From a virus: 64,000 nt of DNA. Each line of letters opens with the position of its first letter. Position 1 is the stretch's first letter. Position numbers and translations under genes: made by a program. The notes below the pieces were generated by a model. The model saw nothing but the letters and a program-made list of their open reading frames with translations. It was not told where the DNA came from and did not search any database. Positions 23,729 through 38,829 of the stretch are shown one piece after another. The stretch lies in IMG/VR virus record IMGVR_UViG_3300015263_000627. One strand, written 5' to 3'.

Positions 23729-26515
23729 ATGACCGCTAATACCCTAGTTATCAAGCTTGGAGGCTCGGATGGACGTGGTTCTCTAACATTCTATCGAGGA
23801 TATACAGGTTCTCAGGGTGTGCCCGGGGAATATGCGGCTCTTGGTTATACTGGTTCGCAGGGTATTCAAGGTGATCCCGGGGGTTATACTGGTAGTCAAG
23901 GAGATACTGGATATACTGGTTCGCAAGGTATTCAAGGACCGGCTGGTGGATATACCGGTAGTCAGGGTGATGTTGGTTATGTTGGTTCGCAAGGTGATAT
24001 TGGATATACTGGCTCGGTTGGTTTTGTTGGTTCGCAAGGTGATACTGGTTACACCGGTTCGCATGGTGGTATTGGTTGGGTAGGTTCGCAAGGTGATAAA
24101 GGTTACACCGGATCGGCATCAACTGTCATTGGATATACAGGTAGCCAAGGTATTCAAGGTGATTCCGGATATACCGGATCAGCATCTACTGTTGTTGGAT
24201 ATACTGGTAGTTATGGTTATACTGGTTCGGCGGGAGCCGGATATACCGGATCAGCATCGGATGTAATTGGATATACTGGATCGATTGGTTACACTGGTAG
24301 TCAAGGCATCAAAGGAAACACCGGTTATACTGGATCAACAGGAATTGGATATACCGGTTCGCGGGGTGGTATTGGTTGGGTTGGCTCGCAAGGTGACAAG
24401 GGTTATACTGGTTCACGTTCCACTGTAATAGGTTATACTGGTAGTAAAGGTGACAAGGGTGATCAAGGTGATGTGGGTTATACTGGTAGCGAAGGCTATT
24501 CTGGATCAACAGGATCAACTGGTTATCAAGGCTCGGCAGGTTATCAAGGCTCGGTAGGTTATCAAGGATCGGTGGGTTATCAAGGATCAGCGGGTGTAAC
24601 TGGTTATCAAGGATCAGGCGCACAAACTGGATATACTGGTTCAATTGGTTATACTGGTAGTGAAGGTGTTGGATATACTGGTAGTCAAGGAACCCAAGGT
24701 AATATTGGATATACTGGTTCACAAGGAACCCAAGGTAACATTGGATATACTGGTAGTCGAGGTTACACTGGTAGTCAAGGAACGCAAGGTGTAATTGGAT
24801 ATACCGGTAGCCAAGGAACCCAAGGTAACATCGGTTACACTGGTAGTCAAGGAACGCAAGGTAACATCGGTTACACTGGTAGTCAAGGAACGCAAGGTGT
24901 AATTGGATATACCGGTTCACAAGGAACCCAAGGTAATATTGGATATACTGGATCGGCTTCAACTGTAATTGGTTATACCGGTTCACAAGGAACTCAAGGC
25001 AACATCGGTTATACCGGTAGTGCATCGGAAGTGATTGGTTACACCGGTAGTCAAGGTGATATTGGATATACCGGTAGTGCATCGGAAGTGATTGGTTACA
25101 CTGGTTCGGCAGGTGTTGGTTATACTGGTAGTGCTTCAACAGTTATAGGTTATACCGGTAGTCAAGGTGATATTGGATATACCGGTAGTGAAGGAATTGG
25201 TTATACTGGTAGTGCTTCAACTGTTCCCGGATATACTGGTAGTAAGGGTGATCAAGGTGATATTGGTTATACTGGTAGCGAAGGTTATTCTGGCTCGCAG
25301 GGTGAAGTTGGATATCAAGGATCAGCCGGAATTACAGGTTATACCGGTAGTCAGGGTGATGTGGGTTATCAAGGTAGCCAAGGTATCACCGGTTATCAAG
25401 GATCAGGTGCACAAACTGGATATACTGGTAGTCAAGGATATACTGGTAGTCAAGGTGTTGGTTATACCGGTAGTGCATCGGAAGTGATTGGTTATACTGG
25501 TAGTCAAGGTGATATTGGATATACTGGTAGTGCATCGGAAGTAGTTGGTTATACTGGTAGCCAAGGTAACATTGGTTATACTGGTTCTGCTTCAACTGTT
25601 ATTGGTTACACTGGTTCGGCAGGTGTTGGTTACACCGGATCGGCTGGTAGTGATGGTGCGGCGGGTTACACCGGTAGTCAAGGTTATACCGGTAGTCAAG
25701 GTATAGGTTATACTGGTTCAGCAGGAGCAGATGGGGGGCTTGGTTACACCGGATCGGCTGGTAGTGATGGTGCGGCGGGTTACACCGGTAGTCAAGGTGA
25801 TATTGGTTATACTGGTAGTGAAGGTATTGGTTATACTGGTTCGGCGGGGGCTGATGGTGGTTTAGGTTACACTGGATCGCAAGGTTACACCGGATCAGCA
25901 GGTGTAGGTTACACTGGATCGGCTGGTAATGATGGAGGACTTGGTTACACTGGTAGCCAAGGTTACACTGGTAGTGAAGGTATTGGTTATACTGGTAGTG
26001 CATCCGAAGTGATTGGTTATACTGGATCGCAAGGTTACACCGGATCGGCTGGCGTAGGTTACACTGGATCGGCTGGCGTAGGTTATACTGGATCGGCGGG
26101 TGTTGGCTACACCGGATCGGCTGGCGTAGGTTATACTGGATCGGCTGGATATACCGGTAGCCAAGGAACAACCGGAACAACAGGTCCAACATCACCTAAA
26201 GCAATTACTATTCCAGCCCCAGTAGCGGGTGATAGTTTCGCACTATTTTGGTCTAATGTTGCAATAACAATTGCTGAAATTCGCACTGTTGTTGTTGGTT
26301 CGGCATCTCCATCTGTAAATGCATCATATTTCCATGGAACAGATAGATCAGCCGGAACGACTATGCAAGCAAGTATCAATACATCAAGCACAACAACAGG
26401 TAATACCCAAACATCATTCTCTAATGCTACCCCGGCAGCAGGTTCATTCATTTGGGTAAATATCAATCAGGTAAGCGGAACAGTAAATTCCTATCATGCA
26501 ACAATAAGGTTCTAA
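23729..26515 (+). CDS. Collagen-like fibre protein 1 (GYTGS repeats, C-terminal globular head)
   Basis: 928 aa, mostly Gly-X-Y triplets (GYT, GSQ, GTQ, GNI) with regular ASTVI/ASEVI/GV interruptions; ~110 aa non-repetitive C-terminus. Confidence 0.9.
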   Translation: MTANTLVIKLGGSDGRGSLTFYRGYTGSQGVPGEYAALGYTGSQGIQGDPGGYTGSQGDTGYTGSQGIQGPAGGYTGSQGDVGYVGSQGDIGYTGSVGFVGSQGDTGYTGSHGGIGWVGSQGDKGYTGSASTVIGYTGSQGIQGDSGYTGSASTVVGYTGSYGYTGSAGAGYTGSASDVIGYTGSIGYTGSQGIKGNTGYTGSTGIGYTGSRGGIGWVGSQGDKGYTGSRSTVIGYTGSKGDKGDQGDVGYTGSEGYSGSTGSTGYQGSAGYQGSVGYQGSVGYQGSAGVTGYQGSGAQTGYTGSIGYTGSEGVGYTGSQGTQGNIGYTGSQGTQGNIGYTGSRGYTGSQGTQGVIGYTGSQGTQGNIGYTGSQGTQGNIGYTGSQGTQGVIGYTGSQGTQGNIGYTGSASTVIGYTGSQGTQGNIGYTGSASEVIGYTGSQGDIGYTGSASEVIGYTGSAGVGYTGSASTVIGYTGSQGDIGYTGSEGIGYTGSASTVPGYTGSKGDQGDIGYTGSEGYSGSQGEVGYQGSAGITGYTGSQGDVGYQGSQGITGYQGSGAQTGYTGSQGYTGSQGVGYTGSASEVIGYTGSQGDIGYTGSASEVVGYTGSQGNIGYTGSASTVIGYTGSAGVGYTGSAGSDGAAGYTGSQGYTGSQGIGYTGSAGADGGLGYTGSAGSDGAAGYTGSQGDIGYTGSEGIGYTGSAGADGGLGYTGSQGYTGSAGVGYTGSAGNDGGLGYTGSQGYTGSEGIGYTGSASEVIGYTGSQGYTGSAGVGYTGSAGVGYTGSAGVGYTGSAGVGYTGSAGYTGSQGTTGTTGPTSPKAITIPAPVAGDSFALFWSNVAITIAEIRTVVVGSASPSVNASYFHGTDRSAGTTMQASINTSSTTTGNTQTSFSNATPAAGSFIWVNINQVSGTVNSYHATIRF
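23799..26185 (+). repeat. Coding tandem repeat array (ggttatactggtagt-type units)
   Basis: Many tens of degenerate 15-36 nt units encoding GYTGSQG/GYTGSA. Confidence 0.9.
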
Positions 26516-26516
26516 T

Positions 26517-26564
26517 ATGGCATATTTCCCGGCAACTCCTGCTTTAGATGAAACAAATGACTGA
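26517..26564 (+). pseudogene. 15-codon remnant (MAYFPATPALDETND*) homologous to the N-terminus of ORF 27494
   Basis: Matches MAYFPSTPSVGDEY at 27494; its stop overlaps the next gene start. Confidence 0.55.
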
Positions 26565-26916: not shown

Positions 26917-26918
26917 TA

Positions 26919-27473: not shown

Positions 27474-27476
27474 ATA
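27470..27476 (+). promoter_or_regulatory. Late promoter motif CTAAATA
   Basis: CTAAATACC, same context as at 23368. Confidence 0.55.
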
Positions 27477-27493: not shown

Positions 27494-28084
27494 ATGGCAT
27501 ATTTTCCTTCAACTCCTTCGGTTGGTGACGAATACTCCTTCGGTAGTGTAACCTATCGATGGGATGGGAGCCGGTGGATCAATGTTGTTAGTCCTCTTTA
27601 TAATGAAAGCATAAATTTTTATCCTGCTGATAATGAACCTCCATCAAGTAACTATGCTACATTAGATACACGCAATGGTCATACTGTTCTGGATTTTGAT
27701 GATACAACGGCTGAATATGCCATATTTACCGGGGTTTTGCCTATTAGCTACAATGGAGCCGGTTTGACCGTCCAAGTTGCCTATTCAATGACTTCCGACA
27801 TTGCCAATACTTGTGGCTGGACCGTTGAATTTGAGAGAATTGGGGATCAACAACAGGATATTGATAGTGATAGTTTTGCTACGGCTCAAACCATTACGGC
27901 TGTTACTGTTCCGGGAACCAGTGGATATGTTGATTTAGTTAGTGTGGATGTTGTGAATGGAGCCAATACTGATAATATTGCGGCGGGAGAATTGTTTCGA
28001 TTACGATTGAAACGTGATGTAGCTAATGATACAGCAGCAGGTGATGCCGAAATGCATTGGGTATCAGTCAAGGAAACTGTATAA
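27494..28084 (+). CDS. Hypothetical fibre accessory protein
   Basis: 196 aa; N-terminal FPSTPSVGDEY...TYRWDGSRW module followed by a beta-sandwich. Confidence 0.75.
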   Translation: MAYFPSTPSVGDEYSFGSVTYRWDGSRWINVVSPLYNESINFYPADNEPPSSNYATLDTRNGHTVLDFDDTTAEYAIFTGVLPISYNGAGLTVQVAYSMTSDIANTCGWTVEFERIGDQQQDIDSDSFATAQTITAVTVPGTSGYVDLVSVDVVNGANTDNIAAGELFRLRLKRDVANDTAAGDAEMHWVSVKETV

Positions 28085-29391
28085 TGACAATAAGTTTCGA
28101 TGGAGTTGATATGGCTTATTCAATCCCGGATATTTCGGGATTAACATATTTTAGTATTTTTTTGAATTTTGTTGAAAGATCAGAAATATCCAATGCTGTT
28201 CTTTTTTCGTGGAACGATGGTTCCAATACCAATATTATTGGATATGCTCCATATTGGCTTTCAGCCTTCGGACTTTTCACTGTAGAATGTAATGGAACGG
28301 GAAATTATACAGCAGTTAATAAACCATCTACTGGAACTTTATATAATATGGCTATAATTAGGAATGCAACTTCAGCAAGTCTCTATCTAAATGGATCATT
28401 AGCAACATCAAATATAACGGGTATTACTAATACATCATCTTTTACTGCTCCAAATATTCGAATTGGATGTCACTATGATGGGGCAGCAAATACATCTTTT
28501 GCAAATACTTATATTTCAGAAGTCGCTATATATAATTATAATTTACCACCTTCCGAAGTTATAGAAATAGCTAAAACTCGTTGTCCTCCCACTGTCCGAA
28601 AGGCCAATTTGATTCGATATATACCATTTGTTAACAATGCTGTGGATTATGCCGGAAAAGTGACCACAACAGCAATTGGTTCCCCAACATTTGTAGGTCA
28701 TCATCCAATAATTAGAAACCGACATTCGCCTACTAGTTCATATAAACCTCCCACTCCGGTATTATTGATGCATTTCAATGGAGAAGATGGTTCCAATACA
28801 TTTATTGATGCTACCAGCAAACATAATATCACTGTATATAATCACACACAAATTGATACGGCACAATCACAATTTGGAGGTGCATCTGCACTCTTTGATG
28901 GAACAGATGACTATTTAGCATTAGATGGTAGTTCTGATTTTGCTTTTGGAACAGGTGATTTTACTATCGACTTTTGGTTCCGTTTTAATATAGACGATGC
29001 CAACTATATGAATTTTTACACTGGGTCTGGTGCTGGTGGAATTGATACATTTCCTATAATACATAAAAATACAACAAAGAAATTGGGATTTTACTCAAAT
29101 TCAGCAGAACGTATCACTGGAACTACAACACTAACTCCTGCTGGTGGTTGGTATCATGTAGCGGTAACTAGGAGTAGCGGTCAGACAAGAATGTTTTTGA
29201 ATGGGGTACAAGAAGGCTCAACATATGCGGATTCTGTCAATTACACAATAGATGCTAATGCCCCACAGATTGGGCGTTGGTCTGGAGCTACTTCATATCT
29301 TAATGGTTGGATGGACGAATTAAGAGTTATCAAGGGTTATGCTGTTTGGACCAAGAATTTTACTCCTCCAACAAAAGCTTATCAAGTATAA
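28084..29391 (+). CDS. Tandem ConA-like/LamG lectin-domain protein (putative receptor-binding)
   Basis: Two LamG-like domains (YISEVAIYNYNL; GDFTIDFW...WYHVAVTRSSG..RMFLNG...NGWMDELRV); TAATG coupling at 28084. Confidence 0.8.
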   Translation: MTISFDGVDMAYSIPDISGLTYFSIFLNFVERSEISNAVLFSWNDGSNTNIIGYAPYWLSAFGLFTVECNGTGNYTAVNKPSTGTLYNMAIIRNATSASLYLNGSLATSNITGITNTSSFTAPNIRIGCHYDGAANTSFANTYISEVAIYNYNLPPSEVIEIAKTRCPPTVRKANLIRYIPFVNNAVDYAGKVTTTAIGSPTFVGHHPIIRNRHSPTSSYKPPTPVLLMHFNGEDGSNTFIDATSKHNITVYNHTQIDTAQSQFGGASALFDGTDDYLALDGSSDFAFGTGDFTIDFWFRFNIDDANYMNFYTGSGAGGIDTFPIIHKNTTKKLGFYSNSAERITGTTTLTPAGGWYHVAVTRSSGQTRMFLNGVQEGSTYADSVNYTIDANAPQIGRWSGATSYLNGWMDELRVIKGYAVWTKNFTPPTKAYQV

Positions 29392-29406: not shown

Positions 29407-29775
29407 ATGGCAAATGTACTAAACAGAACCACAAAAGTATATCTTGAATCGGTCAATACTCCGGATTATCCGGATACTGATTGGATTATCAATCCTGATT
29501 TGTCAGCCGTTGCGGGTTGGCCTGCCAAATATTGGATAATTACCGGTGATGTAGTTACCCTTATGGATGCAAGCGCAAGAGCAACCGTTGATGCTGACGA
29601 ATTAGCAGCGCAACGAGATGCTCTTGTGGCTCAAATGGATCAAGTTGAAAGCTACACCCGGGCATTTGCCTTGGTTGTTCTGGACGAAATAAACAACCTA
29701 CGAGCATTGCATAGTTTGGCTGATCGAACTATTGCTCAATTGAAAAATTCTGTTCGTAATAAATTAGGTAGCTAA
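29407..29775 (+). CDS. Hypothetical fibre chaperone/assembly-like protein
   Basis: 122 aa with a helical C-terminus; last gene of the fibre operon, converging on the GT operon. Confidence 0.65.
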   Translation: MANVLNRTTKVYLESVNTPDYPDTDWIINPDLSAVAGWPAKYWIITGDVVTLMDASARATVDADELAAQRDALVAQMDQVESYTRAFALVVLDEINNLRALHSLADRTIAQLKNSVRNKLGS

Positions 29776-31968
29776 TTTTTTTCGGAAATGGTAATCGCCA
29801 TCTACTGACTTGCCGTTCAATATATTCGGACAAAAAGCTCCATTACCCATCAATTTGAAACCAATACTGTCAAGATAATTGATAACATCTCCCGCCATGG
29901 GCGCACCTTTATTGTAAGATACCGTCTGCAATTCAAGGATCAAATCATTGCAATGTTGCAAGGTATAATGTGCCCCCTTGAGAATGTCCATTTCGGCTCC
30001 TTGCACATCCATTTTGATCAAATCAGGCATTGGAAAATTTTCAACCTTTACAACTGTATCAAGAGTTTTGGTTATACGTTTTTGTTTATGGCTTTCGTTT
30101 AGAATATCGTCAATATTGGGAACAAACTCTTTATTGACCTTGAAATAACCATTACCCCCGGGATCGAAATCATTCTGCCAGAAGTCTATTTCCTTATCAT
30201 CCTTGTCGCTTAGAACCCCAATGTAATAAGGGATATTTTGTTCCTTATACAAAAACTCGGCTTGATCAAATGCATCAAAAGCATAATAATTCGCATCAGC
30301 CCAAACAAATTTAGCCATATTGGTCCAATGCAGAACACAGGCTCCAATATCATAAATGATACGCGGGTTCCAACCCTCGGTATTTTTCAGGTGTAACAGG
30401 TAATCATAATGTTTCTTGGGGATAAGTTGCTGGCTTCCAAGGTCACGCAAACGCTGTTCAAGAGAGTCGGCAGGCTTGGTAATAGTGAAATTACCTAGAG
30501 GTGGCACCACATACTCGGTTGTGCCAAGATGGCGACACTTCACGGATGTATCAGCATATAACTTGAAGCCCTTTTCCGTTGCTTTGCGACAGAAATAGTT
30601 ATCTTCGGTTATATCCCCCACATGTTCCAGCGATCCTACCCAATAAAACTGAGGATAACCAACCGTAGTAATGACTTCCTTTTTAATCAAAACACATCCA
30701 AACCCACATCCCCCAATCTCAATTAGCTTGTTATCCGGAATATTATTTCGGCTCATACGTCGCATGGATAGATCATATAGTTCAATGTTTTCAGTTCCCG
30801 GAATGCGTTGAATATACACCCCCGAAACCAATGGAACATCATGGCTCAATAATTTTTTTAATGTATCAGGCGGAAAAGCAATATCGCTATCAACTGCCCA
30901 TAGATAATCAAACCCCTTGACAACCCAATCGGCAATTAGATTGCGGACTTGGGATATATTATTACCAAAAAAACATTGAAAAGTTGTTTCATAACCTGCT
31001 GGTATTTCCTGATCATAAATCGATTTGAAACATTCGGTATCGATATATTTGAACGTAGGAATGGCGATAAGAATTTTCTTTGCCGGGGGTTTCATAATAT
31101 TTTTTATACTAGGACTTTGTTGAACAAATGATGATAATCCGAATGGTAATTCTGTTTTCTTATCTTGAATTGAAGGCATATCTCCTGCAATTACTTGTTT
31201 TATTATTGAATCCACAATAGGGGTATCGCTATTAGCGATAATCTTATTAGCCGTCATTGTTTGTTCATCCTTGTTTACCTTGTAATCATTCAGAGGATTA
31301 GTATCGTTATAATTATAAACTACATCTTGAATAACCTTGATCTTATTTGGGTCAGCTTGTTCGAGAATATTATAGAATACCGCAACATCGCCCCCGGCTC
31401 GGAACCATTTTTTATTTTCATCTCTAAATTTTTCGAAAGGAACCTTTTCTGCCAAATAATTTCGAAACACGCGGGGATGGTCGTAAGGTATATTCCAAGC
31501 AAATTTATGTGAGCGATATGCTTTGCTTTTTAGAATATTAGGAGGATATTCTTGGGCAATCAATGGAATTTTATCAACCATTGACCAACAGGACCCATAA
31601 CAATATTCATAACCCTGATGGAATATTTCATTATACATATTGAATATTTCGGGATTGTTTACAAGCGAATCATCGCCGTCCAATAGCATTATAATATCAT
31701 CCGGCTCGGCATATTTTCGAATGGTGGTTATTTGGTTATAGACGGCTCCCATGTTTTGAGAACCAACTACAAATTCTATCTTATCTTCACATCCAATATC
31801 TTCTATTGCTTTACAAGCAACATCATAACTATTATCGGTGCTGGCATCGTCAATCAGAATATGTTTATAATTTGTATAGTTTTGAGCGGTAACTGATCGT
31901 ATGCATTTCTCAATGTATTTCTCCGCATTCCAAAACGGTGAAATGATTACAATTCTTTGTTCTTCCAT
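29764..31968 (-). CDS. Tri-domain GT2 + GT2-like glycosyltransferase + FkbM-family methyltransferase
   Basis: Domain 1: IISPFWNAEKYIEKCIRSV..IDDAST..LLDGDD. Domain 2: ILIAIPT..RN..YLWAVDSD..GFGCVLI..EDNYFC. Domain 3: IYDIGAC..LIKMDVQGAE..ILKGA. Confidence 0.85.
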   Translation of the reverse strand: MEEQRIVIISPFWNAEKYIEKCIRSVTAQNYTNYKHILIDDASTDNSYDVACKAIEDIGCEDKIEFVVGSQNMGAVYNQITTIRKYAEPDDIIMLLDGDDSLVNNPEIFNMYNEIFHQGYEYCYGSCWSMVDKIPLIAQEYPPNILKSKAYRSHKFAWNIPYDHPRVFRNYLAEKVPFEKFRDENKKWFRAGGDVAVFYNILEQADPNKIKVIQDVVYNYNDTNPLNDYKVNKDEQTMTANKIIANSDTPIVDSIIKQVIAGDMPSIQDKKTELPFGLSSFVQQSPSIKNIMKPPAKKILIAIPTFKYIDTECFKSIYDQEIPAGYETTFQCFFGNNISQVRNLIADWVVKGFDYLWAVDSDIAFPPDTLKKLLSHDVPLVSGVYIQRIPGTENIELYDLSMRRMSRNNIPDNKLIEIGGCGFGCVLIKKEVITTVGYPQFYWVGSLEHVGDITEDNYFCRKATEKGFKLYADTSVKCRHLGTTEYVVPPLGNFTITKPADSLEQRLRDLGSQQLIPKKHYDYLLHLKNTEGWNPRIIYDIGACVLHWTNMAKFVWADANYYAFDAFDQAEFLYKEQNIPYYIGVLSDKDDKEIDFWQNDFDPGGNGYFKVNKEFVPNIDDILNESHKQKRITKTLDTVVKVENFPMPDLIKMDVQGAEMDILKGAHYTLQHCNDLILELQTVSYNKGAPMAGDVINYLDSIGFKLMGNGAFCPNILNGKSVDGDYHFRKKLAT

Positions 31969-33221
31969 TATAGAAAATCCTCGGGATTGGCAAAACGACG
32001 CCCAAATATCTGATGAATACGTTTATTGATATATTTGACTTGTAGATATTCCTCAACCGGTAAATATTCTCCAAGCACATTATAAAAATGCTGCTTCCAT
32101 TGTAGGGCTATGCTATCCCATTGGGAATATGGCTTGACTATATTACAATAATGGGCTTTTTGTTTCCACAGGTATTTGTCAGCATGAGCGCGTAACATCA
32201 TATCAAGAAATCGATTCACCTGCTCATCCTTGTTGATATTGGGAAACAAGCCATTTGGTTCAACTGGATAATCAAGCAAATATGATGCTTTATCAATTGC
32301 CGTTTCTTCCATGGCTCCAAACCGACAACCGATAATGGGGGTATTGTAATTCAATGCTTCAAGGGCTGATATTCCAAATGTTTCGGGAAAGGCTCCGGGA
32401 GCAACATAATATGATGCTTTGGTCAATAAATCAGCAATTTCGTCTTGTTTGATAATACCCGTAAAAGTAATGTTCTTATTGTTAGGTAATGCCTTCAATT
32501 CATGCCATCTCTTTTCCTGATCGTCGGGTTGTCTATCCGGAAAACGATAAAATCCTCCAATAATAACTAATTTAGCGTGAGGAACCTGTTCAATAAATTT
32601 TGGCCAAATATCTTTTACAAGAGGAACCATACCTTTGGTAAGGGATGCATTATAGATAAACAAATTGGGGTCTTTGGCAAAAACATTGACCCAATCATGA
32701 TAACGTCGCATTCCATCTCGGGTCTGAAATATTTTATTCTTGAGAACTTCAAACATTCGTTTAGCTCCATGATCACAATTAGTCACATAAACAGAATGGA
32801 AGTCAGATAAAGTAAAAATCTTGTCAAATCTTTTATTGACAATCATATGTTCAACAAATGGATCGGAGCCTTGCACAAATGTATCATGCATCCATAACAC
32901 TTTATATTTGGCTGTTTTTATAATGTTATTGAATTTAGGATCGCCGGTATAGGGAGCAATAGAACGAGAAGATATTATGATATCAATATTTGAACAGCTA
33001 CTTATCCCATTTAGATTTATATAGTTGACCCCATCATAAACACCGGGATGGGTATCATCTTCGCCACAACGGTTGAAAACAGTTACTTGAAATCCAAGTT
33101 TGACCAATTCGGGGGCAATAAGGATTACGGACGATTCACTCCCGCCCAAGCCACGTTTTTTTAGGGTATCCCCACAATAAGGAAGTCCTAAAACATCAAT
33201 AAAAGCTATGCTTAAATTCAA
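31968..33221 (-). CDS. GT-B fold glycosyltransferase (GT4-like)
   Basis: GLGGSESSV, LWMHD and ETFGISALEALNYNTPII motifs. Probable TTG start at 33221 after AAGGTGA; the track start at 33281 lies inside the promoter. Confidence 0.85.
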   Translation of the reverse strand: MNLSIAFIDVLGLPYCGDTLKKRGLGGSESSVILIAPELVKLGFQVTVFNRCGEDDTHPGVYDGVNYINLNGISSCSNIDIIISSRSIAPYTGDPKFNNIIKTAKYKVLWMHDTFVQGSDPFVEHMIVNKRFDKIFTLSDFHSVYVTNCDHGAKRMFEVLKNKIFQTRDGMRRYHDWVNVFAKDPNLFIYNASLTKGMVPLVKDIWPKFIEQVPHAKLVIIGGFYRFPDRQPDDQEKRWHELKALPNNKNITFTGIIKQDEIADLLTKASYYVAPGAFPETFGISALEALNYNTPIIGCRFGAMEETAIDKASYLLDYPVEPNGLFPNINKDEQVNRFLDMMLRAHADKYLWKQKAHYCNIVKPYSQWDSIALQWKQHFYNVLGEYLPVEEYLQVKYINKRIHQIFGRRFANPEDFL

Positions 33222-33269
33222 TTCATTCACCTTATAAATTACCATAAATAGATTGAGATGATTAGCTAT

Positions 33270-33298
33270 ATTATATCGCAATTGCTGATCATTGTCAA
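33270..33298 (-). promoter_or_regulatory. Perfect sigma70 consensus promoter for the GT operon
   Basis: Minus strand TTGACA (33298-33293), 17 nt spacer, TATAAT (33275-33270). Confidence 0.8.
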
Positions 33299-33299
33299 G

Positions 33300-33306
33300 T
33301 ATTTAG
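33300..33306 (-). promoter_or_regulatory. Late promoter motif CTAAATA pointing into the GT operon
   Basis: Immediately upstream of the sigma70 -35 box on the minus strand. Confidence 0.5.
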
Positions 33307-33331
33307 CGACATTTTGGGGAAAGGGAACCTT

Positions 33332-34522
33332 ATGTCAAACAAAGATTTTCATGTTCGTAATGGTATATGGGTTGATGATGGTCAGACTATTTATGTCGGA
33401 AATTCCAGCCAAAATACAACAATTTCTAGTCAAAGCATTGTAGTTGGAAATTCTGCTTCTAATGCAGTTATAAATTCATCCGGATTTTCTTTCGGAGGAC
33501 AATCACTTGGTTACGGATATACCGGCTCGCGTGGAACATTAGGATATACTGGATCAATTGGATATTCGGGTAGCCAAGGTTATGCTGGATCAATGGGTGT
33601 TACTGGTTATCAAGGTTCCGCAGGTGTTACCGGTTATCAAGGATCAACAGGATATCGTGGATCAGCCGGTCTTACCGGTTATCAAGGTTCCCAAGGTGTT
33701 ACTGGCTACCAAGGATCGGGAGCACAAACTGGATATACAGGGTCGCAAGGTGTTCTTGGATATACTGGTTCAGCTTCGACAGTCATTGGTTATACTGGTA
33801 GTAAAGGTTATTCAGGTAGCCAAGGTGATCTTGGTTATACCGGATCAGCATCTACTGTTGTTGGATATACTGGTAGTCAAGGTATTACTGGATATAGTGG
33901 ATCAAAAGGCTATTCAGGTTCAATTGGTTATACCGGTAGTGGATTTAAATGGCAAGGTTCTTGGCAAGCTTCAACATGGTATTATGTGCAAGATGTTGTA
34001 TTGTATAATAATTCCAGTTATACTTGTATTCAAGATTGTTATGATATAGCACCATCTAATCCAACTTATTGGACTATAATGGCGGCTCAAGGTTCAACTG
34101 GATATGTTGGATCATTTGGATATACCGGTAGTGCTTCAACAGTTGTTGGATATACTGGGTCAGTAGGATATACAGGATCAGTTTCTAATGCAGCAACACC
34201 TGTAACAATTACAGATGGATCAGGACAAACATTTGATGCTCAAAATGGTTTAACAACTATAGCTCGTCTTTCAGCAACAAGTAATCGTACATTAGTTGCT
34301 CCAACTAATCCAGTTGATGGACAAAAAGTTATTATTGAACATTATGCATCGGGAGGAACTAGAACTCTTTCTTTAACTGTTGGATCGGCAGGAGCATTTC
34401 GTTATGGAGATGATATAACAGGATTAAGTGCAACATCTTCCGGAAAGATAGATCGTATTGGAGTAATTTATAGGGAAGGCGTAGATCGTTGGGATGTTGT
34501 AGCTGTAGTTAAAGGATTTTAA
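33332..34522 (+). CDS. Collagen-like fibre protein 2 with CBM5/12-like insert
   Basis: ATG at 33332 after AAGGGA. GYTGS/GYQGS repeats; WQGSWQASTWYYVQDVVLYNNSSYTC..PSNPTYW insert; globular C-terminus. Confidence 0.85.
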   Translation: MSNKDFHVRNGIWVDDGQTIYVGNSSQNTTISSQSIVVGNSASNAVINSSGFSFGGQSLGYGYTGSRGTLGYTGSIGYSGSQGYAGSMGVTGYQGSAGVTGYQGSTGYRGSAGLTGYQGSQGVTGYQGSGAQTGYTGSQGVLGYTGSASTVIGYTGSKGYSGSQGDLGYTGSASTVVGYTGSQGITGYSGSKGYSGSIGYTGSGFKWQGSWQASTWYYVQDVVLYNNSSYTCIQDCYDIAPSNPTYWTIMAAQGSTGYVGSFGYTGSASTVVGYTGSVGYTGSVSNAATPVTITDGSGQTFDAQNGLTTIARLSATSNRTLVAPTNPVDGQKVIIEHYASGGTRTLSLTVGSAGAFRYGDDITGLSATSSGKIDRIGVIYREGVDRWDVVAVVKGF

Positions 34523-34524: not shown

Positions 34525-35190
34525 ATGACATTTTCTATAAGTTATACTACCAACTCCCAAAAATCTTCATCATCACCTTGGAATTTTTCAAGCATGAATA
34601 TTGGGACAGCAGACCCGGAACGCACAGTAATAGTCGGAATAGCTGCAAGAACAAATAGCAATACGATTACTGGATGTTACATCGGAGGTATCCCTGCTTC
34701 AGAAATATATAAGCAAACGGCGGTTGGATATACTATGGGATTTTATAGTGCCCCTATAGAATCTGGAACCACTGCTAATATTGCAATATACGCCCCTACT
34801 TCTAATCTAGTTTCAATTACAGTTTTTAGAGCAATCGATTTTGGTTCATCTTCAGGTCCGGATGCTTCTGTTGCTAATGGTGACATAAATTGGACTGGAA
34901 ATATAGATTGTTTGCAAAATGGAGCATTACTTGGTCTTGAAATGTATGGACATTATTACCCTGCTAGTAATACTCAAATTTGGCGGGTTTCTTCAGCACT
35001 CGAATCTTTACCAAGCGGTGCAAGTGGACGAACTGTTGGAACAAATCAGAGTAATACTAATATAGTATGGACCGGTCTTACTGAAGAATTTGATAGTTTA
35101 TGGACACCATCATTTCAATCTAATATTTCTATAACTTTAGTAATTTCAATTCATGGTTCTGATAAAACAAAAATGATGTTAATGTTTTAA
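34525..35190 (+). CDS. Hypothetical fibre-tip/accessory protein
   Basis: 221 aa Ser/Thr-rich beta protein directly after fibre 2. Confidence 0.7.
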   Translation: MTFSISYTTNSQKSSSSPWNFSSMNIGTADPERTVIVGIAARTNSNTITGCYIGGIPASEIYKQTAVGYTMGFYSAPIESGTTANIAIYAPTSNLVSITVFRAIDFGSSSGPDASVANGDINWTGNIDCLQNGALLGLEMYGHYYPASNTQIWRVSSALESLPSGASGRTVGTNQSNTNIVWTGLTEEFDSLWTPSFQSNISITLVISIHGSDKTKMMLMF

Positions 35191-35223
35191 AATATAAACA
35201 TTATATTTTTAATATAGGTTATA

Positions 35224-38200
35224 ATGTCAAACAACAGCGTTTCAAAAACTCTTTGGGTAAAATTTGATCAAGATAATTATTCTTCATCGAATATTGTCGA
35301 AGAAGCTCGCTGGTTTTCTTCACCCGCTGAATTTAATTTTGAAGGATCAGGAGGAAATTTTCTTGGAACAGTTGAAGATGTTCCAGCAATTGTCGGTAAT
35401 ACTCAAGCTGGTTTATACGGAGGAAATGGTTATCTTATTGTTTCATCCAATGGCATTGAAGTAAGCACTAGTTTATCAGTAAATGGAACACCCGTTGGTT
35501 ATGGTTATACCGGTAGTCAAGGATATACCGGTTCAATAGGATATACTGGTTCAGCATCGGAAGTTCCGGGATATACAGGATCAGAAGGTCCAGCCGGGGG
35601 CTACACCGGATCGGCAGGTTACACTGGTAGTAAAGGTGATCCCGGGGGTTACACTGGATCAGCAGGATACACTGGTAGTAAAGGTGATATTGGTTATACC
35701 GGATCAGGGGGAGGCGGTGGAGGATATACCGGTTCAGCAGGATATACCGGATCGGCGGGATATGCCGGTAGTAAAGGTGATCCCGGAGGTTATACTGGAT
35801 CGGCAGGTTATACCGGTAGTCAAGGAACCCAAGGTAACATCGGTTATACCGGTAGTCAAGGAACAGGTTATACCGGTAGTCTTGGTTATACTGGTAGTGC
35901 AGGTGTCGGATATACCGGTAGTGCTTCAACTGTAATTGGATATACGGGTAGTCAAGGTTATACTGGTAGTCAAGGAACTCAAGGTGTAATTGGATATACC
36001 GGTAGCCAAGGAACGCAAGGTAATATTGGATATACTGGATCGCAAGGAACCCAAGGCAATATCGGATATACCGGTAGTCTTGGTTATACTGGCTCGCAAG
36101 GAATTGGTTATACCGGATCAGCTTCAACAGTAATAGGTTATACTGGTAGTAAGGGTGATCAAGGTGATATTGGTTATACTGGTAGTGAAGGTTATTCTGG
36201 CTCGCAAGGTGAGGTAGGTTATCAAGGATCGGCGGGATATACCGGTAGTCAGGGTGATGTTGGATATCAAGGATCAACTGGTTATCAGGGTTCTCAAGGT
36301 ATCACCGGTTATCAAGGATCAGGAGCGCAAACTGGATATACGGGTAGTCAAGGTTATACTGGTAGTCAAGGAACTCAAGGTGTAATTGGATATACCGGTA
36401 GCCAAGGAACGCAAGGTAATATTGGATATACTGGATCAGCTTCAACTGTAATTGGTTATACGGGTAGCCAAGGTAATATTGGTTATACGGGTAGTCAAGG
36501 TGTTATTGGATATACCGGTAGTCTTGGTTATACAGGATCGGCAGGAGTTGGTTATACTGGATCGGCTTCAACTGTAATTGGTTATACGGGTAGTATTGGT
36601 TACACTGGTTCAATGGGAACTGGTAGTAGCATTACAGTTTCAAATACAGAACCATCAAGTCCATCAAATGGAGATTTGTGGTTTGATCTAAACACTGGTT
36701 TATTAGTAGCATATGTTGATGATGGAGATAGTCAACAATGGGTTGAAATTGGTCCAAGCCCTCAAGGACCGGCTGGTTATACTGGTAGCCAAGGTCCGGG
36801 GGGTGGTTATACTGGTTCGGCTTCAACTGAACCGGGATACACTGGTAGCCAAGGATATACCGGTAGTCAAGGTGATATTGGTTATACTGGTTCAGCTTCA
36901 ACTGTAATTGGATATACCGGTAGTCAAGGTGATATTGGTTACACTGGTAGCCAAGGTGTTGGTTATACTGGTAGTGCATCCGAAGTAATTGGTTACACTG
37001 GTAGTCAAGGTAATCTTGGTTATACCGGATCAGCTTCAACAGTTATCGGATATACCGGTAGTCAAGGACCAATTGGTTATACTGGTTCTGCATCCGAAGT
37101 AATTGGTTACACTGGTAGCCAAGGACCAATTGGTTATACCGGATCGGCTTCAACTGTAATTGGTTATACTGGTAGTCAAGGTCCGATAGGATATACTGGT
37201 TCGCAAGGAATCCAAGGTGTAATTGGTTATACTGGAAGTCAGGGAATACAAGGCAATATTGGTTACACTGGTAGCCAAGGAACGCAAGGTGTAATTGGTT
37301 ATACTGGAAGTCAGGGAATACAAGGTAATATCGGATATACCGGATCGGCTTCAACTGTAATTGGTTATACTGGTAGCCAAGGTTACACTGGTAGTCAAGG
37401 TATAGGTTATACTGGTTCAGCTTCGACTGTTCCGGGTTATACTGGTTCTAAAGGCGATCAAGGTGATATTGGTTATACTGGTTCACAAGGAGTTGCGGGT
37501 GAAACCGGTTATCAAGGTAGTCAGGGTGATGTTGGATATCAAGGATCAACTGGTTATCAAGGTAGTCAAGGTATCACTGGTTATCAAGGATCGGGAGCGC
37601 AAACTGGATATACGGGTAGTCAAGGTTATACTGGTAGTCAAGGAACTCAAGGTGTTATCGGTTACACTGGTTCACAGGGAACTCAAGGTGTAATTGGTTA
37701 TACCGGTAGTCAAGGAACGCAAGGTAATATCGGTTACACCGGTAGTCAAGGTGATCAAGGTGTTATCGGTTACACTGGCTCGCAAGGAACTCAAGGCAAC
37801 ATCGGTTATACCGGTAGCCAAGGAACGCAAGGTAATATTGGATATACTGGATCAGCTTCAACTGTAATTGGTTATACGGGTAGCCAAGGTAATATCGGTT
37901 ATACTGGTTCGGGAGGCGGGGGTGCCAGCGTTACAATTTCCTCCACAGAGCCAGCAAGTCCAATAAGTGGAGATTTATGGTATGATCTAAACACTGGTTT
38001 GTTGGTAGTATATGTTGATGATGGAGATAGTGAACAATGGGTTGAAATTGGTCCAAGTCCGCAAGGTCTTACTGGTTATACTGGTTCGGCAGGTCTAGGT
38101 TATACAGGTTCGGCAGGTTATACTGGAAGTGCTTCAACCGCAGTTGGTTACACTGGTAGTCAAGGTAATATCGGTTATACCGGATCGGCTTCAACTGAAC

Positions 38201-38829
38201 CGGGATATACTGGTAGTCTTGGTTATACTGGATCAGCGGGGGCTGGTTATACTGGTAGTCAAGGTTATACTGGATCAGGAGGAAGCGGAAGTCTTACTAT
38301 ATATGATGATGGTGTGATAACATCAACTTATGCTCCTGATCCTACCAACGGAAATTATCATTTAGTAATATCTAACGGAGCAATAACATTATCAAAACCA
38401 ACATCAAATTGTTTGTTTTATGTGCAATATGTAAATGGACCAGCGGCAGGCGGGCTTTCCTATCCAGATTATAGAGTTGGAAGCAGCGTTGGAGATACTT
38501 TTTCAGCTAATCCACGATCAAGTGCTTCTGTTACAATAAACCAAAGCACTGATTATATTACATGGAGTGGTCATGGTTTTGAAGTCTCCGACCCATGTTG
38601 GTTTAGAGCAGGTGTAATGATGCCGGGAAACGTTACAGCAAACCAAATCTATTATATTTCTTATATAACTAATTCTTCTGCCTTCAAAATTGCCAGTAGT
38701 CCGGGGGGAGCTAATGTAAATATTACTAGTAACGGTTCATTGGTTAACTGTTATGCCGCTTCCATTTATAATCTTACTGTATCATGCATAAATGATATAG
38801 CCACAATTACTGTAAAATCTTTGACCTAA
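35224..38829 (+). CDS. Collagen-like fibre protein 3 with two repeated node domains
   Basis: 1201 aa; three GYTGS collagen tracts separated by two TEP..P..GDLW.DLNTGLLV.YVDDGDS.QWVEIGP nodes. Confidence 0.9.
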   Translation: MSNNSVSKTLWVKFDQDNYSSSNIVEEARWFSSPAEFNFEGSGGNFLGTVEDVPAIVGNTQAGLYGGNGYLIVSSNGIEVSTSLSVNGTPVGYGYTGSQGYTGSIGYTGSASEVPGYTGSEGPAGGYTGSAGYTGSKGDPGGYTGSAGYTGSKGDIGYTGSGGGGGGYTGSAGYTGSAGYAGSKGDPGGYTGSAGYTGSQGTQGNIGYTGSQGTGYTGSLGYTGSAGVGYTGSASTVIGYTGSQGYTGSQGTQGVIGYTGSQGTQGNIGYTGSQGTQGNIGYTGSLGYTGSQGIGYTGSASTVIGYTGSKGDQGDIGYTGSEGYSGSQGEVGYQGSAGYTGSQGDVGYQGSTGYQGSQGITGYQGSGAQTGYTGSQGYTGSQGTQGVIGYTGSQGTQGNIGYTGSASTVIGYTGSQGNIGYTGSQGVIGYTGSLGYTGSAGVGYTGSASTVIGYTGSIGYTGSMGTGSSITVSNTEPSSPSNGDLWFDLNTGLLVAYVDDGDSQQWVEIGPSPQGPAGYTGSQGPGGGYTGSASTEPGYTGSQGYTGSQGDIGYTGSASTVIGYTGSQGDIGYTGSQGVGYTGSASEVIGYTGSQGNLGYTGSASTVIGYTGSQGPIGYTGSASEVIGYTGSQGPIGYTGSASTVIGYTGSQGPIGYTGSQGIQGVIGYTGSQGIQGNIGYTGSQGTQGVIGYTGSQGIQGNIGYTGSASTVIGYTGSQGYTGSQGIGYTGSASTVPGYTGSKGDQGDIGYTGSQGVAGETGYQGSQGDVGYQGSTGYQGSQGITGYQGSGAQTGYTGSQGYTGSQGTQGVIGYTGSQGTQGVIGYTGSQGTQGNIGYTGSQGDQGVIGYTGSQGTQGNIGYTGSQGTQGNIGYTGSASTVIGYTGSQGNIGYTGSGGGGASVTISSTEPASPISGDLWYDLNTGLLVVYVDDGDSEQWVEIGPSPQGLTGYTGSAGLGYTGSAGYTGSASTAVGYTGSQGNIGYTGSASTEPGYTGSLGYTGSAGAGYTGSQGYTGSGGSGSLTIYDDGVITSTYAPDPTNGNYHLVISNGAITLSKPTSNCLFYVQYVNGPAAGGLSYPDYRVGSSVGDTFSANPRSSASVTINQSTDYITWSGHGFEVSDPCWFRAGVMMPGNVTANQIYYISYITNSSAFKIASSPGGANVNITSNGSLVNCYAASIYNLTVSCINDIATITVKSLT
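35500..38290 (+). repeat. Coding tandem repeat array shared with fibres 1 and 2
   Basis: Same DNA units as 23799-26185; node repeats at ~36630-36770 and ~37920-38070. Confidence 0.9.

What the first reader, a model, noticed from the sequence alone, without database searches (positions are those of the whole stretch)
23729..38829. Candidate glyco-collagen fibre system: sugar-transfer operon embedded between Thr-rich collagen fibre genes
Seen: a reverse-strand two-gene operon (GT4-like; GT2-GT2-FkbM fusion) lies inside the fibre cluster, between three collagen-like genes. Their Gly-X-Y tracts are Pro-poor and dominated by GYT (Thr at Yaa) and GS(Q/A). Established: O-glycosylated Thr at Yaa stabilises the Pro-poor cuticle collagen of Riftia; Bacillus BclA is a glycosylated collagen-like protein; some mycobacteriophages glycosylate virion proteins using GTs encoded among structural genes; FkbM-family enzymes O-methylate sugars. 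Inference: three GT active sites plus a methyltransferase could build a short methyl-capped O-glycan on GYT/GS repeats, to stabilise the triple helix, mimic host polysaccharide or shield the virion.
Basis: partly seen in the sequence, partly recalled or inferred. Interest (0 to 1): 0.85.

Follow-up and report, generated by a model that had tools for sequence, protein, structure and literature searches.

The report
Phage collagen-fibre glycosylation cassette
An uncultured T4-like phage carries a four-domain sugar-adding and methylating enzyme set among three collagen-like tail-fibre genes, and across many phages this enzyme set occurs only where fibres carry the repeat Gly-(Tyr/Phe)-Thr-Gly-Ser, so the phage most likely sugar-coats its own fibres, though no glycan has been measured.

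Summary
A complete 181-kb T4-like phage has three proline-poor collagen-like fibre genes carrying 165 GYTGS units. Between them, on the opposite strand, lies a two-gene operon: GT4, then GT2-GT2-FkbM. All four catalytic motifs are conserved.

- The cassette is a large, virus-restricted family (1,761 homologue clusters). In most relatives it is a single ~1,120-aa GT4-GT2-GT2-FkbM protein, found in T4-like and ~350-kb jumbo phages.
- Of 42 records found by the repeat motif, 35 carry the cassette. The misses are fragments.
- Of 29 records with other collagen-like fibres, none carries it, and the 28 of them scanned for the motif lack it too.
- In near-complete genomes the pairing has no exception in either direction. 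On a terminase tree it needs 2-4 joint changes.

One correction: Thr at the Y position is common in fibres without the cassette. The linked feature is G-[Y/F]-T-G-S, in which Ser is essentially invariant and Tyr and Phe are interchangeable.

Fibre O-glycosylation is the best reading (about 0.6) but is unproven. Modification of a host surface glycan remains the main rival. First readers of this scan noted the same pairing on three other genomes, and follow-ups found analogous TibC-type pairings.

The parts
23394..23726 (+). Small fibre-associated gene (110 aa) directly upstream of fibre 1. It has a CTAAATA late-type motif 26 nt upstream of its start.
   Evidence: phrog_1084 E 1.5e-25 and phrog_3304 'L-shaped tail fiber assembly' E 2.8e-18. 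Homologues accompany the cassette and fibres in many related loci. Promoter motif.
23729..26515 (+). Collagen-like fibre 1 (928 aa). The repeat region spans residues 24-811 and holds 72 GYTGS units, followed by a C-terminal non-collagen domain of about 117 aa.
   Evidence: Pfam Collagen E 2.2e-63; PHROG tail fibre; triplet statistics.
28057..29391 (+). LamG / ConA-like lectin-fold structural protein (444 aa). This is context: LamG proteins flank the cassette in most relatives.
   Evidence: Pfam Laminin_G_3 E 3.4e-30; PHROG baseplate/virion families; LamG neighbours in related loci such as L003, L005, L013, L020, L022 and L023.
31234..31968 (-). GT-A domain 1 of the fusion enzyme (residues 1-245), with DxD motif LLDGDD.
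   Evidence: Pfam Glycos_transf_2 E 1.1e-19. D97, G98, D99 and D100 are invariant in 25 sequences. pLDDT is above 90.
30499..31092 (-). GT-A domain 2 (residues about 293-490), with DxD motif VDSD and an ED motif.
   Evidence: phrog_1574 E 3.7e-17 and phrog_34859 glycosyltransferase E 2.4e-10. V359, D360, D362, E455 and D456 are invariant and S361 nearly so. Fold match to STIV A197: TM 0.70, rmsd 3.4.
29764..30462 (-). FkbM-type SAM methyltransferase domain (residues about 503-734) plus the stop codon.
   Evidence: Pfam Methyltransf_21 E 1.4e-12. The motifs YDIGACVLHWT and KMDVQGAE are conserved.
31968..33245 (-). GT4 (GT-B, retaining type) glycosyltransferase with a GGSES loop and EX7E motif. 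The likely start is ATG 33245. Its stop overlaps the next gene's ATG (TAATG).
   Evidence: Pfam Glycos_transf_1 E 8.5e-15; invariant motifs; model pLDDT 85 and pTM 0.87 with generic GT4 fold matches; junction sequence.
33270..33306 (-). Promoter stack for the GT operon: a CTAAATA late-type motif (33306-33300), then a perfect sigma-70 consensus TTGACA-17-TATAAT (33298-33270), ending 24 nt before ATG 33245.
   Evidence: This is the only 12/12 match in 17 kb and one of two in 181 kb. A perfect or near-perfect sigma-70 promoter is also found upstream of the cassette in relatives G007 and G023. 60% of CTAAATA sites lie within 90 nt upstream of a gene start, against 6.8% expected.
33314..34522 (+). 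Collagen-like fibre 2 (402 aa), divergent from the GT operon. It has 11 GYTGS and 11 other GYxGS units, a weak CBM_5_12-like insert and a C-terminal domain.
   Evidence: Pfam Collagen E 3.6e-18 and CBM_5_12 E 0.0015, below cut-off.
34525..35190 (+). 221-aa gene of unknown family lying between fibres 2 and 3.
   Evidence: No Pfam or PHROG hit.
35224..38829 (+). Collagen-like fibre 3 (1201 aa) with 82 GYTGS units in three blocks. The blocks are separated by two GDLW...TG...QWVEIG modules. It also has an N-terminal domain and a C-terminal domain of about 190 aa.
   Evidence: Pfam Collagen E 2.2e-62; phrog_6320 tail fibre E 3e-104 and phrog_3304 at residues 902-945.
41727..41852 (+). Two isolated GYTGS units in the C-terminal tail of gp15 (tail-sheath stabiliser). 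They are the only copies in the genome outside the fibres.
   Evidence: About 0.04 copies would be expected by chance in 56,264 aa. The units are not conserved in the gp15 of cassette-bearing relatives.

Best explanation
The operon encodes a soluble, cytoplasmic, phage-specific glycosylation machine that modifies the phage's own collagen-like fibres at the repeated unit G-[Y/F]-T-G-S.

Proposed steps (all inferred):
1. The GT4 domain (GT-B, retaining type) puts the first sugar, taken from a host nucleotide-sugar, on a hydroxyl of the unit. Ser is the invariant candidate and Thr the frequent one.
2. The two GT-A domains extend it, either by one sugar each or alternately as a co-polymerase.
3. 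The FkbM domain O-methylates the terminal sugar, capping or terminating the chain.

The enzymes would be made early from a consensus sigma-70 promoter, and probably also late from a CTAAATA motif. They would therefore be present when the late fibre genes are translated.

Shown here: the gene and domain content, intact conserved catalytic motifs, restriction of the family to viruses, and the genome-level pairing of the cassette with the motif.

Inferred: that the fibres are the acceptor, which residue is the acceptor, the sugars, the chain length and the biological benefit (fibre stability, protection from proteases, or tuning of adsorption).
For: 1. Motif to cassette.
- Among 76 collagen-fibre loci fetched with fibre 3, 14 of the 18 with at least 4 GYTGS units have the cassette inside the locus. 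None of the 58 without the motif has it.
- A protein-independent DNA scan for GYTGSxGYTGS gave 79 loci, 14 with the cassette in the slice.
- Of 28 others whose whole record was searched, 21 have a strong multi-domain match, including all three that are at least 90% complete. The 6 negatives are fragments, 12-64% complete.

2. Control. Of 29 records with other collagen-like fibres, none has the cassette (only four weak single-domain hits). The 28 of them scanned for the motif have none.

3. Cassette to motif. Of 20 cassette-fetched records, 12 have the double motif and the 8 negatives are 4-22% fragments. Three records with only weak FkbM-like hits have none. The collagen genes of jumbo-phage records carry the motif even when they lie tens of kb from the cassette.

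4. Not one clade. On a TerL tree the joint label needs 4 changes, at least 2 of them forced by well-supported branches. For example, G020 (both present) is sister to G044 (both absent) with 100/99 support.

5. The unit behaves like a sequon. G-[Y/F]-T-G-S has Ser about 100% invariant and only an aromatic residue tolerated at position 2, across lineages. A triple helix does not require either feature.

6. The family is virus-restricted. It has 1,761 homologue clusters, yet only 3 of 185,579 prokaryote species genomes match, and the two longer of these contigs are phage-like.

7. All four active sites are conserved.

8. The divergent, embedded arrangement and the strong sigma-70 promoter recur in T4-like relatives.

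9. Neither enzyme has a transmembrane segment.

10. Precedents exist. PBCV-1 A064R is a GT-GT-methyltransferase that builds and methyl-caps a capsid glycan, and Mimivirus L230 glycosylates viral collagen (PMC9614988).
Against: - No glycan, mass shift or expression data exist. Everything rests on co-occurrence and analogy.
- GT4 + GT2 + methyltransferase sets are typical of polysaccharide (O-antigen or capsule) synthesis. The literature reads glycosyltransferases in the fibre region of aquatic myophages as host O-chain modifiers (PMC7029224).
- A consensus sigma-70 promoter is what early host-takeover genes have.
- In jumbo phages the cassette lies next to giant LamG proteins without the motif, not next to the collagen genes.
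- Thr is replaced by Val, Ala or Gln in 10-20% of units, and G-[Y/F]-T-G-S could be a purely structural fibre motif.
- Many records are fragments, and phage mosaicism weakens the TerL tree as a species tree.
- Isolated motifs outside collagen were found only in this phage's gp15. They are absent from its relatives' gp15 and from the rest of genomes G007 and G023.
Confidence: 0.6

Rival explanations
1. Host-surface glycan remodelling. The enzymes extend and methyl-cap a host lipid-linked O-antigen, capsule or EPS intermediate during infection. This would block superinfection or stop progeny sticking to debris. The pairing with G-[Y/F]-T-G-S fibres would arise because such fibres are used on hosts that have that glycan.
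For: - GT4/GT2/FkbM combinations and tandem GT-A polymerase-like folds (PmHS2, K4CP) are typical of polysaccharide synthesis.
- The N-terminal GT2 domain weakly hits a GtrB-like PHROG (E 5e-7).
- The operon has a perfect sigma-70, early-type promoter.
- This is the standard reading in the literature for aquatic myophages (PMC7029224; PMC12801897).
Against: - The family is almost absent from cellular genomes: 3 of 185,579 species, the two longer matching contigs phage-like.
- The operon has no GtrA/GtrC-type or other membrane partner, and neither enzyme has a transmembrane segment.
- The linked feature is a repeat in the collagen stalk, not a receptor-binding tip. The C-terminal domains of the three fibres differ from one another.
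- The pairing holds in both T4-like and jumbo backbones.
Confidence: 0.22
2. No functional coupling. The cassette and the G-[Y/F]-T-G-S fibre genes travel together as one mobile fibre module, or are shared by descent. The cassette would then have an unrelated target, for example LamG proteins, another virion protein or a small molecule.
For: - They are adjacent in T4-like relatives.
- The cassette abuts LamG proteins in jumbo phages.
- Phage fibre regions are recombination hot spots.
Against: - In jumbo phages the two lie tens of kb apart yet still co-occur. In G001 the cassette is near 129 kb and the collagen near 40 kb, and G019 has several distant collagen clusters.
- 2-4 joint changes are needed on the TerL tree.
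- Near-complete genomes show no off-diagonal case.
Confidence: 0.12
3. DNA hypermodification. The transferases glycosylate modified bases in phage DNA, as the T4 alpha- and beta-glucosyltransferases do.
For: T4-like phages and many others glycosylate DNA. Diverse viral glycosyltransferases do this (Pyle et al. 2024, as cited in PMC12619734).
Against: - The genome has no ThyA/dCMP-hydroxymethylase family gene.
- FkbM enzymes are known to methylate hydroxyl groups of small molecules and sugars, not DNA (established knowledge, not tested here).
- This reading gives no reason for a pairing with a fibre repeat motif.
Confidence: 0.03

Closest known systems
Chlorovirus PBCV-1 A064R (GT - GT - methyltransferase, three domains; PMC9614988)
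   Same: One viral polypeptide carries two glycosyltransferase domains followed by a SAM methyltransferase. It extends a glycan on a virion structural protein and O-methylates the terminal sugar. It is soluble and expressed early.
   Different: - No detectable sequence relationship: the PDB sequence search did not return A064R-D1.
- A064R acts on an N-glycan of a capsid protein in a eukaryotic host.
- Here a GT4 domain is added, the presumed acceptor is a collagen-like repeat, and nothing has been shown biochemically.
Mimivirus L230 / R699 and animal LH3 / COLGALT1 collagen glycosyltransferases
   Same: These are virus-encoded (or animal) enzymes that glycosylate collagen-type Gly-X-Y proteins. 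LH3, COLGALT1 and R699 appear among the fold matches of the fusion protein.
   Different: - Those enzymes glycosylate hydroxylysine, and there is no hydroxylase here.
- The fold matches have low TM (0.18-0.31) and probably reflect only a shared multi-domain, GT-A-containing build.
- Lys is rare in these repeats.
Mycobacteriophage virion glycosylation (Freeman et al. 2023, cited in PMC12619734 and PMC12801897; the paper itself is not held)
   Same: Phage-encoded glycosyltransferases modify the phage's own virion proteins in the cytoplasm.
   Different: - The targets there are C-terminal extensions of the capsid and tail-tube subunits, not collagen-like fibres.
- The enzymes are different and the hosts are actinobacterial.
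- That system is demonstrated experimentally.
Bacillus anthracis BclA and Riftia cuticle collagen (cited from general knowledge)
   Same: Both are Pro-poor or Thr-rich Gly-X-Y proteins carrying O-glycans on Thr. The BclA glycan ends in an O-methylated sugar.
   Different: - Thr-at-Y repeats of the GPT/GAT type occur in phage fibres without this cassette.
- The unit linked to the cassette is G-[Y/F]-T-G-S, with Ser invariant.
- There are no sugar-nucleotide genes in the phage genome.
Phage TibC/BAHT-type fibre glycosylation modules noted earlier in this scan (e1-5774157, e1-5322112, e1-5790396, e1-5968807)
   Same: The logic is the same: a transferase and methylase set is kept only by phages whose collagen-like fibres have a particular proline-free repeat chemistry.
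   Different: Those use a TibC-like enzyme and Gly-Thr/Ser-Ser repeats. This one uses GT4 + 2 GT-A + FkbM and G-[Y/F]-T-G-S. I did not re-test those reports.
ABC-transporter-type O-antigen assembly with methyl capping (E. coli O9a WbdA/WbdD) and Geobacillus S-layer glycan enzyme WsaE (from general knowledge)
   Same: These are multi-domain transferases combined with a methyltransferase that caps or terminates a glycan chain.
   Different: Those act on lipid-linked glycans that are exported by the cell. Here the family is virus-restricted and has no transport or ligase partners.

Membership tests
Collagen triple-helix repeat proteins (Pfam PF01391) | Gly-X-Y repeat profile match above the gathering score | tested here: met
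   210, 65.5 and 207 bits against a cut-off of 27.2. Uninterrupted runs reach 32 triplets.
Collagen triple-helix repeat proteins (Pfam PF01391) | Actual trimeric triple-helix formation | not testable with these tools
   The runs are often interrupted (median run 5-7 triplets). Circular dichroism or a structure is needed.
GT4 / Glycos_transf_1 (GT-B, retaining) | Pfam match above cut-off, EX7E motif and GT-B fold | tested here: met
   55.1 bits against a cut-off of 26.4. In FPETFGISALE, E278 and E286 are invariant. The fold matches BshA, MshA and PimA.
GT2 / Glycos_transf_2 (GT-A), domain 1 | Pfam match above cut-off and a DxD motif | tested here: met
   71.4 bits against a cut-off of 23.3. DGDD is invariant.
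GT2 / Glycos_transf_2 (GT-A), domain 2 | Pfam match above cut-off | tested here: not met
   Only 17 bits, below the cut-off. A GT-A fold is nevertheless supported: PHROG glycosyltransferase families, STIV A197 at TM 0.70, and invariant V359, D360, D362, E455 and D456. I file it as a GT-A domain of uncertain CAZy family.
FkbM methyltransferases (PF05050) | Pfam match above cut-off and a SAM-binding motif | tested here: met
   48.5 bits against a cut-off of 22.7 over the whole profile, positions 1-173. The DIGA... and KMDVQGAE motifs are conserved.
PBCV-1 A064R family | Sequence homology to the A064R domains | tested here: not met
   The PDB sequence search at E up to 0.1 did not return A064R-D1. 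The resemblance is one of architecture and presumed logic only.
Gtr-type phage O-antigen glucosylation (GtrA/GtrB/GtrC) | Membrane GtrB with a GtrA flippase and a GtrC membrane transferase | tested here: not met
   Only a weak GtrB-like PHROG hit on the first 125 residues (E 5e-7). Neither the enzymes nor their neighbours have a transmembrane segment. The operon has only two genes.
Phage virion protein glycosylation systems (functional class) | Glycan demonstrated on a virion protein and dependent on the phage transferases | not testable with these tools
   Only the co-occurrence of cassette and motif is shown.
T4-type DNA glucosylation | Hydroxymethyl-pyrimidine synthesis gene (ThyA family) together with a DNA glucosyltransferase | tested here: not met
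   PF00303 is absent from the complete genome.

The most novel reading that the evidence does not exclude
G-[Y/F]-T-G-S is a dedicated O-glycosylation sequon read by a virus-only GT4-GT2-GT2-FkbM enzyme family. The enzyme builds a methyl-terminated oligo- or polysaccharide on collagen-like fibres, giving a 'phage glycocalyx'. The system would be widespread in aquatic T4-like and jumbo phages. It would be one of several parallel enzyme and repeat-type pairs by which phages chemically tailor collagen fibres. Many 'LPS-modifying' glycosyltransferases annotated in marine and freshwater myophage fibre regions would then really be virion-modifying enzymes.
Probability: 0.35. Interest if true: 0.88.

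Novelty: new variant of a known kind. Interest (0 to 1): 0.78.

Why it matters
Self-glycosylation of virions is established for chloroviruses, mimiviruses and a few mycobacteriophages. Glycosyltransferases in the fibre regions of aquatic myophages, by contrast, are routinely read as host-LPS modifiers.

This finding offers three things:
- a large, virus-restricted enzyme family;
- a precise candidate sequon;
- a clean comparative signal linking the two across unrelated phage backbones.

That turns the idea into a directly testable hypothesis using a peptide substrate, recombinant enzyme and virion mass spectrometry.

If the hypothesis is true, it would:
- change how glycosyltransferases in phage metagenomes are annotated;
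- add a new protein O-glycosylation system with a short sequon that could be used for glyco-engineering;
- bear on how phage fibres gain stability, resist proteases or tune adsorption in natural waters.

Tried and rejected
- Megablast of the operon and of gp13-gp17 against 50,697 phage records gave no match. tblastn found only partial single-domain hits, so no cultured phage carries the cassette.
Contexts came from the search for related loci, the DNA search and the genome search instead.
- The listing of cluster members gave only the name 'FkbM family methyltransferase'.
- The Freeman et al. 2023 paper (PMC10527164) is not held, so it is cited only through papers that cite it.
- The PDB sequence and fold searches did not point to a specific acceptor. 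The GT4 domain matches generic GT-B enzymes. The matches of the fusion to LH3, COLGALT1 and R699 have low TM, and I do not count them as homology.
- Sequon idea tested on gp15: the two isolated GYTGS units are real. They are not conserved in the gp15 of cassette-bearing relatives. No isolated units exist elsewhere in the complete relatives G007 and G023. This stays a curiosity, not support.
- Thr at the Y position as the discriminating feature: rejected, because cassette-less fibres are often GPT/GAT/GDT-rich.
- Tyr as the acceptor: rejected, because Phe replaces it freely.
- Sugar-nucleotide genes that might name the sugar: none found.
- The T4 late promoter TATAAATA is not enriched in the window. 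The late-type motif of this phage appears to be CTAAATA.
- I did not run complex prediction, because enzyme-substrate pairs are a poor use of it. I did not look at sequencing runs.

Full report
**Setting**

The window is bases 47,557-111,556 of a 181,157-bp IMG/VR virus record with direct terminal repeats. CheckV rates it 100% complete. Its GC content is 38.6%.

The gene order is that of a T4-like myovirus. Baseplate wedge proteins gp6/7/8 and two very large structural proteins come first, then the fibre region. After that come gp13, a homing endonuclease, gp14, gp15, gp16/17, and the sheath, tube and portal genes. The portal is 54% identical to that of Stenotrophomonas phage DLP_6 and about 52% identical to Synechococcus myophages. 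No close relative exists among 50,697 deposited phage records.

Three genes are Pfam Collagen and PHROG tail-fibre proteins:
- 23729-26515
- 33314-34522
- 35224-38829

They are the only collagen-like genes in the genome. Together they hold 165 GYTGS pentapeptides. GYT is the commonest triplet, followed by GSQ and GSA. Proline makes up 1-3% of residues. The Gly-X-Y register is often interrupted, for instance by ASTVI or ASEVI, but runs reach 32 triplets.

Between fibre 1 and fibre 2, on the other strand, lie two genes.
- The first is a GT4 enzyme.
- The second is a 734-aa protein with a GT2 domain, a second GT-A domain and an FkbM methyltransferase.

The AlphaFold model of the fusion has mean pLDDT 82.5. 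It shows three folded modules joined by disordered linkers at residues 247-292 and 490-500. Domain 2 matches the viral GT-A protein STIV A197 at TM 0.70. The GT4 model has pTM 0.87 and is a standard GT-B fold.

In 60 homologues that are about 53% identical, the following motifs are conserved:
- the GGSES loop and EX7E of GT4
- DGDD of GT-A 1
- VDSD and ED of GT-A 2
- DIGAxVLHWT and KMDVQGAE of FkbM

All four active sites therefore look functional. Neither protein has a transmembrane segment.

**Gene structure and expression signals**

GT4's stop and the fusion's start overlap as TAATG. In most relatives the same four domains form one open reading frame of about 1,120 aa. Some relatives have a duplicated GT4, giving about 1,580 aa. 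The window's enzyme is thus a split version of that fused gene.

A perfect TTGACA-17-TATAAT promoter sits directly upstream of GT4 at 33298-33270. It is the only 12/12 match in 17 kb and one of two in the genome. The listed TTG start at 33281 lies inside it, so ATG 33245 is the likely start.

The same kind of promoter precedes the cassette in two T4-like relatives. It is perfect in G007 and TTGATT-17-TATAAT in G023.

Just upstream, at 33306-33300, is a CTAAATA motif. In this genome 26 of its 43 copies lie within 90 nt upstream of a gene start on the same strand, against 6.8% expected. The genes concerned include gp6, gp18 and the first fibre operon. CTAAATA is therefore probably the late promoter of this phage. 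The operon would then be transcribed both early and late. I consider this reading likely but unproven.

**Relatives of the cassette**

The fusion protein has 1,761 homologue clusters at E up to 1e-10. Nearly all carry Glycos_transf_1, Glycos_transf_2 and FkbM in one chain, on contigs of up to 383 kb. In IMG/VR the cassette occurs in two kinds of phage:
- T4-like phages of about 170-200 kb
- fragments whose CheckV completeness implies genomes of about 350 kb

Some relatives lack the FkbM domain, for example the 867-aa form in the complete genome G007, and also G021 and G024. The three transferase domains are therefore the constant core.

Among one genome for each of 185,579 prokaryote species, only three contigs carry the cassette. 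The 201-kb one is syntenic with the window, with large structural proteins, the small fibre-associated gene, GYTGS fibres and the cassette. It is evidently a phage contig binned into a Cellvibrionaceae MAG. The other two are binned to a gammaproteobacterium and to Luminiphilus. The family is thus in effect virus-restricted. Those bins give a weak hint that the hosts are aquatic Gammaproteobacteria.

**The co-occurrence test**

*(a) From fibre protein to cassette.* Using fibre 3 as the query, I fetched 76 collagen-fibre loci with up to 10 kb of flank on each side.
- 18 of them have at least 4 GYTGS units. Of these, 14 contain the cassette.
- The 4 exceptions include three short contigs and one locus (L069) whose full record does have the cassette.
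- None of the 58 loci without the motif contains the cassette.

*(b) From DNA motif to cassette.* A scan for the back-translated GYTGSxGYTGS motif, independent of any protein query, returned 79 loci.
- 14 have the cassette within the slice.
- Of 28 others whose whole records could be searched, 21 have a strong multi-domain match and 1 a weak one.
- All three records that are at least 90% complete are positive.
- The 6 negatives are 12-64% complete.

*(c) Control.* Of 29 records whose collagen-like fibres lack the motif, none has the cassette. There are four single-domain hits at E about 1e-11. The 28 of these records scanned for the motif have none anywhere.

*(d) From cassette to motif.* Of 20 records fetched through the cassette, 12 carry the double motif with Tyr or Phe allowed.
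- The 8 without it are 4-22% fragments.
- Both near-complete records have it.
- Three records with only weak FkbM-like hits have none.

In jumbo phages the motif-bearing collagen genes can lie far from the cassette. In G001 they are near 40 kb and the cassette near 129 kb, and G019 has several clusters.

*(e) Phylogenetic spread.* On a TerL tree of 15 records, the joint state (cassette plus motif) needs four changes. At least two are forced by well-supported branches. G020 (both present) is sister to G044 (both absent) at 100/99 support.

Among genomes at least 90% complete there is no exception:
- G000, G007, G019, G023 and G070 have both features.
- G005 has the motif and a diverged cassette.
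- G038, G039, G045, G052, G058 and G059 have neither.

**What exactly is linked**

Thr at the Y position is not the linked feature. Fibres without the cassette are often dominated by GPT, GAT or GDT.

Across lineages the unit is G-[Y/F]-T-G-S-x.
- The aromatic position is Tyr or Phe interchangeably. One locus has 110 Phe against 16 Tyr.
- Thr fills about 80-90% of the next position. The rest is Val, Ser, Ala or Gln.
- Ser after the second Gly is essentially invariant.
- The residue after Ser is free.

A triple helix does not require an aromatic X residue or a fixed Ser. The pattern therefore looks like a recognition unit. The Tyr hydroxyl cannot be the acceptor. Ser is the most constrained candidate and Thr the most frequent one.

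**Best explanation**

I consider it most likely, at about 0.6, that the enzymes O-glycosylate the phage's own fibres at this unit in the cytoplasm, using host nucleotide-sugars. The genome has no epimerase/dehydratase or nucleotidyl-transferase genes.

GT4 would be the priming transferase. The two GT-A domains would extend the chain, and FkbM would methylate the terminal sugar.

Chain length cannot be decided. The best structural matches of the tandem GT-A part are alternating co-polymerases, Pasteurella heparosan synthase 2 and the E. coli K4 chondroitin polymerase. A methyl cap is a known chain-terminating device. PBCV-1 A064R, on the other hand, adds just two sugars and a methyl group (PMC9614988).

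**Rivals**

- *Host-surface glycan remodelling* is the standard reading for glycosyltransferases in aquatic myophage fibre regions (PMC7029224). It fits the enzyme types and the early promoter. It explains poorly the virus-restricted distribution, the lack of membrane partners, and a link to a stalk repeat rather than to a receptor-binding tip. I give it about 0.2.
- *Mere hitch-hiking or shared descent* is weakened by the long distances in jumbo phages and by the scattered joint changes on the tree. I give it about 0.1.
- *DNA glycosylation* is unlikely without a hydroxymethylase.

**Limits**

- No glycan has been seen.
- Many records are fragments.
- TerL may not track whole-genome history.
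- The motif could be structural.
- The two isolated GYTGS units in the C-terminal tail of gp15 are very unlikely by chance. They are not conserved in relatives, so they add little.

**Relation to earlier notes of this scan**

First readers noted the same GYTGS-plus-four-domain-enzyme pairing on three other genomes. Follow-up agents reported analogous pairings of TibC-type enzymes with Gly-Thr/Ser-Ser fibres, and of a prolyl hydroxylase with Pro-containing fibres. I did not re-test those. If they hold, the present case is one member of a broader pattern in which phages match fibre-modifying enzymes to the repeat chemistry of their fibres.

Noticed in passing
window 41727-41852 (gp15, 40998-41864): The tail-sheath stabiliser gp15 has two GYTGS units in its C-terminal tail, one of them at the very C-terminus. 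They are the only copies outside the fibres in 56,264 aa of predicted protein. Relatives have PGLTVDGEPTS where this phage has PGYTGSGPTS.
   Followed up: yes
window 33270-33306 (-); also G007 and G023 upstream of their cassettes: A perfect sigma-70 consensus promoter (one of two in the genome) lies just downstream of a CTAAATA motif. CTAAATA is strongly enriched upstream of gene starts (26 of 43 copies), including several virion structural genes, and is probably this clade's late promoter.
   Followed up: partly
L248 (CAZIWB010000010.1, 201-kb contig), L249, L250: Phage-like contigs carrying the cassette and GYTGS fibres are binned into MAGs of Cellvibrionaceae, an unclassified gammaproteobacterium and Luminiphilus. 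This is a hint that the hosts are aquatic Gammaproteobacteria rather than cyanobacteria.
   Followed up: partly
L005, L013, L020, L022 (jumbo-phage loci); window 28057-29391: The cassette is very often immediately downstream of giant (1,500-2,100 aa) LamG / ConA-like proteins that lack the motif. A 444-aa LamG protein lies two genes from the operon in the window. These could be lectin-type partners or additional substrates.
   Followed up: no
window 39677-40264: A homing-endonuclease-like gene (phrog_314, E 1e-12) is inserted between gp13 and gp14. Homologues occur at the same place in some relatives (L143, L203, L205).
   Followed up: no
window 35224-38829, residues about 540-590 and 895-945: Fibre 3 is divided into three collagen blocks by two near-identical modules (GDLW.DLNTGLL..YVDDGDS.QWVEIG). 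These match the same PHROG (3304) as the small gene upstream of fibre 1. They may be trimerisation or registration nodes.
   Followed up: no
G012:C1:16743-18809; G007:C1:67714-70317; L007, L038: The cassette architecture varies between relatives. Some have no FkbM (867 aa), some a duplicated GT4 (about 1,580 aa), and one record has FkbM placed between the two GT-A domains. Whether these variants track changes in the fibre repeat was not tested.
   Followed up: no
G005 (160-kb complete record; L025, L043, L047, L050): This phage has abundant G[F/Y]TGS fibres, but only the FkbM part is 45% identical to the window's, and there is only a very diverged GT4-like hit (22%). It may carry a replaced transferase set serving the same repeat.
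   Followed up: no
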